This document shows positions 11,018 through 14,000 of a DNA stretch of 64,000 nt, piece after piece. A program made the position numbers and the translations under genes. This DNA comes from Stylophora pistillata (lineage: Eukaryota): positions 593,547 to 657,546 of the forward strand of contig NW_019217824.1 of NCBI RefSeq assembly GCF_002571385.2, given 5' to 3'. Numbering within the stretch: the stretch's first letter is position 1; every line of letters begins with the position of its first letter. The notes below the pieces were generated by a model. It searched no databases. It saw only the letters and a list, made by a program, of their open reading frames with translations, and was not told the DNA's origin.

Positions 11018-14000
11018 AAGAAGAAGAAGAGAAGGCGAGGTGAGGTGTAGATTATGCGGCAAGGCTCCGGAGAGTGTGGCACATATCTTGTCAGGATGCA
11101 GTGCGCTGGCCAAGAGCAAGTATCTCTCTAGACACGACGCAGCACTGAAGGTACTGTTTTACGAACTATTGAGGGATTTATAGACGAGATACCACCCTGG
11201 TACTCACCCGACAAGCCGAAGCCCGTGTATGAGTCAGAGAATTGTAAAGCTTATTGGGTTGTCCCTATATATGCTGATCAACAAGAGGTCAGATGCAATA
11301 GGGTGGATGNNNNNNNNATATAAATATATCGACTAAGGAATGCTGTCATTATATAAAACCACATTTTGAGAACTAATCTAAAAAAAAAATGACCAAAGAA
11401 AGTAGGGAAAATCAGCAGTCAGATTTAAGAAGAGAAAGGGTGAACTCTTGCTTCAGCCAAACACCGACTTGTGACACCGACCCGTCGATCCTTTGAGGAC
11501 CCTTTTTTGACCATTTGACTGTTGTGATCTCATATTTTACATGAAGTACGAAACGAGTTTTTTTTAACCTTTCTGCAAAGCTGCTGAATTTCCACGTTTC
11601 TCAGTTCCATTTCTTGAACAAGTTCGCCATAGGCACTTCCTTCATCACAATCCTACCAAAATAACGAAAAAGGAATAATGAATTCATGAAATAAGGACGG
11701 GTTTAATGACAAAGGCTTCACACTTTGTTCCCCTAGTTCAGCGAGAAGAAAGTGAGAAGAGCATAGGAAAGACAAGAGAGATGGCTAGAAAAGTAAGGGG
11801 GGGAGGGCGGGGATAGCATCAAAAAAGCAATTTCTCTACCTTTCCTTTGCCTTTTCTCCACAGAAGCTCAGCCTGACAACTATCGCATACCTTACTATAT
11901 TGCTTCAGCCTCTCGATCTCTATGGTGGCACCTTCTGTTCCAGCAGTGAAGATCTTCAATTCGTCTGACAAGAACTCAGAATGTGACACAGGGTTACCAG
12001 CCAAGTGGAATCGAACCATGGTCTGAAAACAAAGCGGATTCCCTCAAAGAGTACACTCGTGTTGGGCACTTTCACGGATACTAACTCGCGATTAAATTAG
12101 CCAAAATGTTCCTGTACTCACAGTATAGTAATGAATTGCCTTCTCCAAGGGTTCCATGGCAACTGTATCATCTAACTAAAGCAAGTAGACAGCAAAAAAT
12201 GATTCAAATACATGCAAGTTTTCTTAAAATGAAAGAAAGAAACCATCAGCACTACTATTGCTGAAACTTAGGGTTTTAAATGTACCTGGTCTTTCTTGAA
12301 CAAGTCAATAAGTCCATCCACAGCCCTCTCGTGCGCTGCTAGTTCAGGGTATATACCAACCAATTTGTTGAACAAACCAGCATCACACTTGTCAAGAGCT
12401 CTGCCAGTAAATGCACATGAACATAGTATATTTCATACCGACGTCAACTGATGTACAGTGACTTGTGGCAAAAAAAAAATGTGTGTTTTCCAAAACAACT
12501 AGAGCTGTATCTTTCCCTTCAAGTGATATCATAATGAAAGTGTCAACACTACCAGCTCCATACAAATGACTCATTCACTAGATTAACATTACAAACGAGC
12601 CAAACAGAACGACCTTACTTTACCGACGGCTCGAAACACACCAATCACGACCGACTTACGCCAATTGAGTCTTACAGCTAATGACATCACGGAAAAACTG
12701 ACCAATCATTTTACACTAATTGGACTAAGAACACTCTACTGACAACAAATATTCACTTGACTCTGATGATGACTTCCGCACAGATTGTCGAAACGTCAGT
12801 CACCACCACCGACAACAGTCCTTCTCAGGACTAACACTCACCCGGACGATCACACCATACTTTCATCATAATTATAGTTAGGTACCTCTTCATATTCTTC
12901 ACAACTGCTTGGAGAACTGCCAGCCGGTAAATCAGTCCTGAAGCAAAACTTAGTCCTTCACCAGCTTCACTTTGAATCTTGGCAGGATCCTCCAGACACT
13001 CTGCAATCTCGTACTACATTTACAAAAAAATCATTTTTAGTATTAGGAGGACACCTACAAGACTTGTGTCCTGCGCTGGTGTCAACGTCATCCAATTGGT
13101 GGTTTTCACGTTACGTCAACGCCGCCATGTTGGTGGACGTAAACAATAGATATCTCTTTAGCTTCTTTTGTTCGTCCACCAGCATTCGTTCCTTTCACCA
13201 TTGTTACCTGTTTCTCTAGAGATTGGTTATAAACCACCTATTTTAAATAAATTTTTCAACGATTGTCAATTGCTTAAGGACGAACAAGGCTATGGATAGA
13301 ATGTGCGCTTTAACAGTTTGACTTCATTTCCATGATCTGATTGTTAATTCTCCCGTCTAGCTAGCATGAGTTTTGTGTTTCCTTGTCCGCAAGAAAGTTT
13401 GAGGCTTTGGTAAAACTGAGCTTGTAAGAGGTCCCACAAGAAATCTGGCACTAGACACTTGAACTGCAGTCCTTATATCTTGCCAGTAAGACTTATTGCT
13501 AAGACTATTCAGCATCCTTTCAAATCTGACCGTTTGGAGATAAAGAGTAACCCTAAATGCCCTCTCCCCCTTGACACTGGATTTGTGTCCGTGTCCACTT
13601 AACAAAGGTGTCTAATGAAAACAAGTTCCTTTTACAGCAAACACGGATGCAATAATTTACTATATTTTACTACTTTAGCTACAGGATGAATAACTAGCTT
13701 AGGGTCTGCATAATATAGGTTTCACTGTAATTTGATCAGCTTGAGTACATATTGATTCACATACAAGATATCTCCAACATGACATAATTCAATGTTTATC
13801 AAAGAAATAAAATTTGGATAAACTGAACGAATTTCACTAATCTATCAATTGCTTGTCTCACCTTTTGTCTTAACTGAGAATGCAACAATTCAGTCTTGAA
13901 ACTCAGACGTGGAATGAGTAGCAGCAATAAGACACTTTCATTGTCACCTGCAACAGAATATAACGTGTTAACACATTTTAAAATGTGATTTTTTGGAGGT

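What the first reader, a model, noticed from the sequence alone, without database searches (positions are those of the whole stretch)
12758..12802. Intact minimal hammerhead ribozyme in a DCTN1 intron
Seen: complete core (CUGAUGA, GAAA, GUC), a 5-bp stem I, a 3-bp stem II and a helix III reduced to the palindrome ACGU. Known: Penelope-like elements carry such minimal type I hammerheads, which cleave as dimers through the palindromic helix III. It lies antisense to DCTN1, so the host pre-mRNA is spared. The ORF track cannot show this feature.
Basis: partly seen in the sequence, partly recalled or inferred. Interest (0 to 1): 0.7.

Follow-up and report, generated by a model that had tools for sequence, protein, structure and literature searches.

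The report
Stranded Penelope hammerhead in dynactin intron
This is a self-cutting-RNA motif of a known kind, left by a jumping gene in over a thousand copies in this coral genome, and this damaged, back-to-front copy in a normally spliced dynactin intron is likely inert.

Summary
The motif is real: core, both stems and the ACGU palindrome lie at 12758-12802. It is a minimal type I hammerhead of a Penelope-like element (PLE), one of 1,299 exact family motifs in the genome. It sits in a 5'-truncated insertion (12535-12865, 6-bp target-site duplication), antisense in a DCTN1 intron that RNA reads show spliced. 'Intact' overstates it. A G-to-A change at 12784, shared by 0 of 68 other long copies, weakens helix II (predicted -0.4 against -5.1 kcal/mol). 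The window holds no second copy to pair with, and no plus-strand transcript of the locus was seen. In two near-full-length relatives the element's start codon is A9-U-G10.1 of the ribozyme. Most family copies end about 70 or 100 nt past the cut site, so they were likely copied from uncut RNA, as published for an anole PLE. One weak lead: copies starting 1-2 nt after the cut are about three times commoner than at control positions (post hoc; the a-priori test was not significant). The scan noted both patterns before in other genomes. Verdict: known kind, low interest.

The parts
12529..12534 (.). Left target-site duplication TCATAA
   Evidence: Same hexamer at 12529 and 12866, the only two between 12401 and 12900; direct repeat D2
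12535..12543 (-). 9-nt inverted copy of the element's 3' terminus at the 5' junction (miniature PLE inverted end; overlaps the body by 4 nt)
   Evidence: Reverse complement equals the family 3' end ACACTTTCA; inverted repeat I5. Reading it as a PLE inversion is inference
12540..12865 (+). 326-bp 5'-truncated 3' end (pLTR) of a Penelope/Poseidon-like element
   Evidence: Matches 29 of 29 other fetched copies at 87-92%; nearest copies 91%; 88% to a young copy
12537..12611 (+). Dead remnant of the last 25 codons of the RT/GIY-YIG ORF, with two in-frame stops
   Evidence: tblastn 64% to P0003 residues 352-376; stops in the translation from 12540
12753..12757 (+). Inferred RNA start of the family (12-16 nt before the AUG)
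   Evidence: 13 of 75 internal 5' ends fall here; near-full-length copy L132 begins here, and L115 does too but beside an assembly gap. Inferred; the sample is biased
12758..12802 (+). Minimal type I hammerhead motif: stem I 12758-12762/12798-12802, core 12763-12769, extra U 12770, helix II 12771-12789, GAAA 12790-12793, ACGU 12793-12796, predicted cut 12797/12798
12769..12771 (+). ATG formed by A9, the extra U and G10.1; opens the ORF in near-full-length relatives, but runs into a stop after 21 codons here
   Evidence: 485-codon frame from this ATG in L095/L115; same start in L132; window frame
12784..12784 (+). G-to-A change that breaks the C12776-G pair of outer helix II
   Evidence: 0 of 68 other long copies share it; helix II -0.4 against -5.1 kcal/mol; one short copy, L170, also has it
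12866..12871 (.). Right target-site duplication TCATAA
12401..12885 (-). Host DCTN1 intron, 485 nt, GT..AG
   Evidence: Joint 12400-12886 in 21 reads (X24) and 4 reads (X21)
12286..12400 (-). Downstream DCTN1 exon
   Evidence: Pfam Dynactin 40.3 bits, cut-off 25.6; Dynactin subunit 1 chains, E 3e-06; joints
12886..13013 (-). Upstream DCTN1 exon
   Evidence: Spliced to both neighbours; no Pfam hit on its own

Best explanation
The motif is the minimal hammerhead in the end repeat of a Penelope/Poseidon-like retrotransposon, left here as a truncated antisense copy that is likely an inert passenger in a normally spliced DCTN1 intron. Shown: the 326-bp body, the target-site duplication, the parent ORF (RT plus GIY-YIG), splicing of the intron and the helix II lesion. 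Inferred: reverse transcription began about 97 nt into the ORF, ran back through an uncut ribozyme and stopped after 326 nt. Inferred: in the active element the ribozyme spans the first ~45 nt of the RNA and holds the start codon, so a slow dimer- or protein-assisted cut 29 nt after the A of AUG would remove the cap and start codon; most RNAs are copied uncut.
For: Family size 1,299 against control 0. Parent ORF: RVT_1 and GIY-YIG hits, YVDD, DKG, no cysteine in the linker; over 40 copies at 100% protein identity, so a young subfamily exists. Tandem and inverted arrangements. AUG in the core opens the ORF. 138 of 151 copy 3' ends lie at AUG+95..103 or +127..132 and 0 at the cut, like the two internal RT starts in PMC11167929. 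Splicing is seen and plus-strand depth is 0 at 12410-12682 and 12865-13046. Reads over the motif carry G12784 (71 of 73 in X24, 171 of 175 in X21), so they come from other copies. No partner in the window. In 171 nt of context the hammerhead helices have pairing probability <=0.01.
Against: Cleavage was not tested. Locus depth is low (exons about 5-27x) and only 2 RNA runs were laid on it, so rare or tissue-specific antisense transcripts could be missed; 2 of 73 and 4 of 175 reads lacked G12784. The core and the three inner pairs of helix II are intact. Both Pfam hits of the parent ORF lie below the curated cut-offs (21.6 of 29.6; 19.9 of 22.6). The small excess of copies starting at the cut argues that some family RNA is cut. 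No empty allele was seen in two DNA contig sets, which neutrality does not predict but also does not forbid.
Confidence: 0.88

Rival explanations
1. This copy is a working ribozyme: its own pLTR promoter makes an antisense RNA that pairs in trans with RNA of another copy and is cut at 12797.
For: Core and stem I are intact. The copy keeps the inferred start region and two CCAAT-like repeats. Family RNA is abundant on both strands.
Against: No plus-strand depth on either flank. Helix II is weakened by about 4.7 kcal/mol and the ACGU self-duplex is only -1.7 kcal/mol. No read-end pile at the cut. Published monomers were inactive and dimers weak (PMC4209133).
Confidence: 0.07
2. The insertion has been co-opted to tune DCTN1, by antisense transcription or by altering the donor site 20 nt away.
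For: It makes up 337 of the 485 intron bases and ends 20 nt from the donor. It is present in both DNA samples laid, with no empty allele.
Against: The intron is spliced with near-zero coverage over its unique part. The copy has decayed: 21 of 42 differences from the family majority are shared by at most one other copy, with stops and a 1-nt insertion. No conservation across species was tested.
Confidence: 0.03
3. It is a monomer of a non-autonomous retrozyme (tandem hammerhead repeat making RNA circles), not a PLE fragment.
For: Corals carry retrozymes with type I hammerheads (PMC7229834, passages), and these are proposed to derive from pLTRs (bioRxiv 2026.07.22.740005, abstract and introduction).
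Against: The body begins inside the GIY-YIG ORF and is collinear with ORF-bearing copies. It is single, not a tandem array. Coral retrozymes carry canonical hammerheads; the minimal ones resemble PLE motifs (PMC7229834).
Confidence: 0.02

Closest known systems
[quoted passage not shown]
   Same: Type I, no helix III, palindromic 15.2-16.2, 4-5 bp helix I, unpaired base between 9 and 10.1, G10.1-C11.1, thousands of mostly single copies, nearby pairs on opposite strands. The genome's other large family matches the paper's Acropora digitifera example.
   Different: This family's helix II is 3+2 bp around a U-U loop, not the 7-8 bp of the Schistosoma motifs. I did not see this family in the supplement passages read. 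This copy has a broken outer pair.
PAc, Poseidon element of Anolis carolinensis (Frangieh et al. 2024, PMC11167929)
   Same: ORF starts at the beginning of stem II; cut shortly after the start codon; two internal RT start sites give copies with or without a tail; uncut RNA is the main template; no RNA-seq ends at the cut.
   Different: Cut 29 nt after the A of AUG here against 26 there. Copy ends at AUG+95..103 and +127..132 here, against an RT start at +111-118 there. Nothing here is shown biochemically. A weak excess of genomic starts at the cut is seen here.
Penelope/Poseidon clade of EN+ PLEs (Craig et al. 2021, PMC8557442)
   Same: C-terminal GIY-YIG with CxxC and two later histidines, no CX2-5CxxC linker, DKG motif, 5' truncation, partial tandems, inverted 5' copies, 30-40 bp tail.
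   Different: Clade placement rests on motifs only; no tree with named references was built.
Metazoan non-LTR retrozymes (PMC7229834)
   Same: Type I hammerhead in a short coral repeat.
   Different: Retrozymes are non-coding tandem arrays with canonical, efficient hammerheads and RNA circles; this is a solo fragment of a coding element.
Conserved intronic hammerheads of amniotes (HH9/HH10; recalled, cited in PMC4209133's reference list)
   Same: A hammerhead inside an intron of a host gene.
   Different: Those are rare, conserved and canonical (recalled); this is antisense, one of over a thousand copies, and decaying.

Membership tests
PLE minimal type I hammerhead | Core CUGANGA ... GAAA ... 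NUH in type I order | tested here: met
PLE minimal type I hammerhead | [quoted passage not shown] | tested here: met
   U12770, G12771-C12789
PLE minimal type I hammerhead | No helix III; palindromic 15.2-16.2 | tested here: met
   ACGU 12793-12796
PLE minimal type I hammerhead | Lies in a pLTR of an RT/GIY-YIG element | tested here: met
   About 150 nt after the ORF stop in ORF-bearing copies
PLE minimal type I hammerhead | Covariation of stems I and II | tested here: met
   Across 12 motif clusters, 78 of 96 pairs against shuffled mean 55.2, max 74; clusters may be related and 6 are single copies. Within the family copies are too alike: 849 same, 25 broken, 13 one-side, 3 both-side
PLE minimal type I hammerhead | Stable helix II | tested here: inconclusive
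   Family -5.1 kcal/mol, this copy -0.4; the inner 3 bp still pair in the isolated 45-mer. Prediction only
PLE minimal type I hammerhead | Self-cleavage as a dimer or with protein | not testable with these tools
   Needs an in vitro assay; no read-end pile in RNA-seq
Penelope/Poseidon clade PLE | Single ORF, RT followed by C-terminal GIY-YIG | tested here: met
   RVT_1 E 2e-4 and GIY-YIG E 9e-4, both under the curated cut-off; YVDD and DKG present
Penelope/Poseidon clade PLE | CCHH motif in the endonuclease, no CX2-5CxxC linker | tested here: met
   CSDC with later histidines; 0 cysteines in the linker; read by eye, not aligned to references
Penelope/Poseidon clade PLE | Partial tandems, inverted 5' copies and an optional 30-40 bp tail | tested here: met
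Penelope/Poseidon clade PLE | RT phylogeny groups with named Poseidon elements | not tested
   No named references in session; the Atlas look-up returned nothing
Non-LTR retrozyme | Non-coding tandem repeats with a hammerhead in each unit | tested here: not met
   Single copy starting inside the ORF

The most novel reading that the evidence does not exclude
In this still-young coral PLE family the ribozyme is a start-codon switch that does cut in living cells: the core supplies the AUG, cleavage 29 nt later removes cap and AUG, and a small share of cut RNAs is reverse-transcribed, leaving genomic copies that start 1-2 nt after the cut. That would be genomic evidence for in vivo activity of a ribozyme that barely cuts in vitro. 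It concerns the family, not this copy.
Probability: 0.3. Interest if true: 0.5.

Novelty: new member of a known kind. Interest (0 to 1): 0.2.

Why it matters
As a locus it matters little: it is a decayed copy of a motif described in 2014, with at least 2,961 exact look-alikes in this genome (1,299 + 72 + 1,590). The family is more useful. It has a young subfamily with many identical ORF copies, its start codon lies in the ribozyme core, and its copy ends map the RNA start and the RT start sites. The role of PLE hammerheads is still called unclear in print (PMC8557442), and a full count of copy 5' ends in this family would test directly whether they cut in vivo.

Tried and rejected
Rfam: no hammerhead match at gathering score or at E<=10. 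Folding z-score: not informative (-0.46). The idea that the extra base is always the U of a start codon was rejected: 1,590 genome motifs have another base there, mostly A among the 100 listed, so the overlap is family-specific. A first covariation run missed the window's own family and split another; it was redone. RNA ends at the cut: none at the locus or on a young copy in 4 of 4 runs; random-primed libraries show ends poorly. Copy 5' ends at the cut in the first sample: 0 of 75 within 2 nt. The genome-wide test first looked strong (12 junctions at cut+1 against 2 at cut+4) but weakened with more controls and after removing fold-back and microhomology junctions (6 of 12 left; a-priori p 0.18). 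No complete gap-free full-length element was found among fetched loci. Protein Atlas gave no result. A count of the base at the 12784 position used a faulty pattern and was ignored. Designed PPR proteins outranked dynactin; I took these as repeat artefacts (0 passing stretches). Sequence look-up in earlier findings returned nothing.

Full report
1. Observation. The 45 nt at 12758-12802 read as described: stem I TGACT/AGTCA, CTGATGA, GAC/GTC, GAAA, CG, TC, with the predicted cut after 12797. A descriptor scan of both strands found this motif and one poor match at 23948; the strict form, which I defined after seeing the motif, had 0 hits in 40 simulated windows. A looser core pattern has one window match against 0.01 expected. 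Rfam does not detect it.

2. Host gene. Pfam Dynactin matches three minus-strand stretches around the site. The exon below the intron scores 40.3 bits against a cut-off of 25.6 and matches Dynactin subunit 1 chains. RNA reads join 12400 to 12886 across CT..AC ends in 21 reads (X24) and 4 reads (X21), all in the orientation of the minus-strand gene. Depth over the unique part of the intron is 0-2 against about 5-27 on exons. The antisense intron holds no CUGANGA. Run labels include 'coral metagenome', so the host is taken to be a coral.

3. The insertion. A search with 281 nt around the motif gave 1,547 first-look candidates, 40 scored. Homology to 29 of 29 other fetched copies covers 12540-12865 or most of it. 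TCATAA flanks it at 12529 and 12866, and 12535-12543 is the reverse complement of the family's 3' end. So the insertion is 12535-12865 with a 6-bp duplication, 337 of the 485 intron bases. It starts in the last 25 codons of the parent ORF, with two stops. The nearest fetched copies are 91% identical. No second copy lies in the window. Two DNA contig sets hold both junctions and show no empty allele; one may be the source of the assembly, and contigs drop rare variants.

4. The parent element. Longer copies carry an ORF with RVT_1 and GIY-YIG hits, both under the curated cut-offs, YVDD and DKG motifs, CxxC plus later histidines in the nuclease, and no cysteine in the linker. By the criteria in PMC8557442 this fits Penelope/Poseidon; no tree was built. 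Over 40 of 109 scored matches are 100% identical over 375 residues, so a young subfamily exists. Copies form partial tandems and inverted pairs. The family motif has 1,299 exact matches, control 0. Disjoint patterns add 72 and 1,590, at least 2,961 in all.

5. Structure support and the lesion. Across 12 motif clusters from 162 fetched motifs, 78 of 96 stem positions pair, against 55.2 on average and at most 74 in 20,000 shuffles. The clusters were gathered with core patterns, may be related, and six are single copies. Within the family there is too little change to judge. The family helix II is GAC-UU-CC-loop-GG-UU-GUC. This copy has A at 12784 where 68 of 68 other long copies do not; one short copy shares it. 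Predicted helix II energy falls from -5.1 to -0.4 kcal/mol, and in 171 nt of context the hammerhead helices have probability 0.01 or less; I did not fold a family copy in the same context.

6. Expression and cleavage. Plus-strand depth is 0 on both flanks in both RNA runs. Reads over the motif carry the family G at 12784 in 71 of 73 (X24) and 171 of 175 (X21), so they come from other copies. On a young copy, 2,510-5,122 reads per run lie on both strands with no pile of ends in 4 of 4 runs. Loose ends after the tail have mixed letters, as expected of many passively transcribed fragments. These libraries show RNA ends poorly, so this is weak evidence.

7. How the family works (inferred). In L095/L115 an ATG made of A9, the extra U and G10.1 opens 485 codons in frame into the RT region; L132 starts the same way before an assembly gap. 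A second in-frame ATG lies one codon earlier. The cut falls 29 nt after the A. Of 151 copy 3' ends, 71 lie at AUG+95..103, 67 at +127..132 and none at the cut. The window copy ends at the first site. Of 75 internal 5' ends, 13 lie 12-16 nt before the AUG, where L132 and several short solo copies start. These loci were picked by similarity or by core patterns, so the sample is biased. The picture matches the anole element in PMC11167929: ORF starting at stem II, two internal RT starts, uncut RNA as template, cleavage only with protein. The AUG overlap is family-specific, since many motifs have another base there.

8. Test for a cut footprint. I searched the genome for copies whose homology starts at given positions and classed the fetched loci. 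Junctions, then those left after removing microhomology of 3 nt or more: cut-17, 2 and 2 (21 of 21 examined); cut 0, 5 and 1 (16 of 16); cut+1, 12 and 6 (30 of 32); +2, 9 and 9 (18 of 18); +3, 4 and 4 (24 of 24); +4, 2 and 2 (10 of 10); +5, 7 and 2 (30 of 36); +11, 3 and 2 (30 of 59). The a-priori test at +1 gives p 0.013 on raw counts and 0.18 after cleaning. Pooling +1 and +2, chosen afterwards, gives about 15 against a mean of 2.6 per control position (p 0.004). A quasi-palindrome right after the cut favours fold-back junctions and confounds the count. At most about 1% of copies are involved. This is a lead, not a result.

9. Literature seen. PMC4209133: main text (parts 1-3 of 4) and passages of supplement file 2; file 1 was not searched. 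PMC11167929: parts 1-2 of 4; its supplements were not read and may bear on the footprint claim. PMC8557442, PMC7229834, PMC13725137: passages. bioRxiv 2026.07.22.740005: part 1 of 5. Four searches showed no paper on genomic copy starts at PLE hammerhead cuts; the library is partial. The remark on amniote intronic hammerheads is recalled. Earlier notes of this scan on other genomes report starts at the ribozyme, cut footprints and uncut templates; I read them after my own tests, and they are not independent support.

10. Verdict. The motif is real and correctly named, but it is a decayed, solo, antisense copy of a very common known motif. Novelty: new member of a known kind. Interest 0.2.

Noticed in passing
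window:13094-13242: A second high-copy repeat in the next DCTN1 intron, with terminal inverted arms (13094-13105/13231-13242) and an inner hairpin; MITE-like. Contig depth is thousands of times the unique level. A lesser repeat lies near 13320-13410.
   Followed up: no
window:48079-48151 and 48326-48398: Two tRNA-Thr(AGT) genes with the same sequence, 247 nt apart.
   Followed up: no
window:17163-17917: Assembly gap (N run); the long ORFs listed at 17035-17968 span it and are artefacts.
   Followed up: partly
G000, e.g. L195-L224: A second large minimal-hammerhead family with a 4-bp helix II; it makes up most of the 100 listed of 1,590 matches and equals the published Acropora digitifera example.
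   Followed up: partly
L050, L056, L178, L188: Short solo copies (about 110-145 nt) from the inferred RNA start to one of the two RT start sites; L050 has a target-site duplication of about 10 bp. They look like run-off products from the RNA's 5' end.
   Followed up: partly
L234, L237, L249, L348, L354, L361, L362: Repeated fold-back insertions whose two arms meet at the quasi-palindrome just after the cut site.
   Followed up: partly
L364-L380: 8 of 9 junctions starting at cut+2 are preceded by T, perhaps a non-templated base or an AT-rich target. Unexplained.
   Followed up: no
L031 (G000:C276:217500-226500): Young inverted-plus-tandem insertion with two ORF-bearing units and shorter inverted pLTR pieces upstream.
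   Followed up: partly
L004: Both ends of this copy continue into nearly the same flank in opposite orientation; an inverted duplication or an assembly artefact.
   Followed up: no
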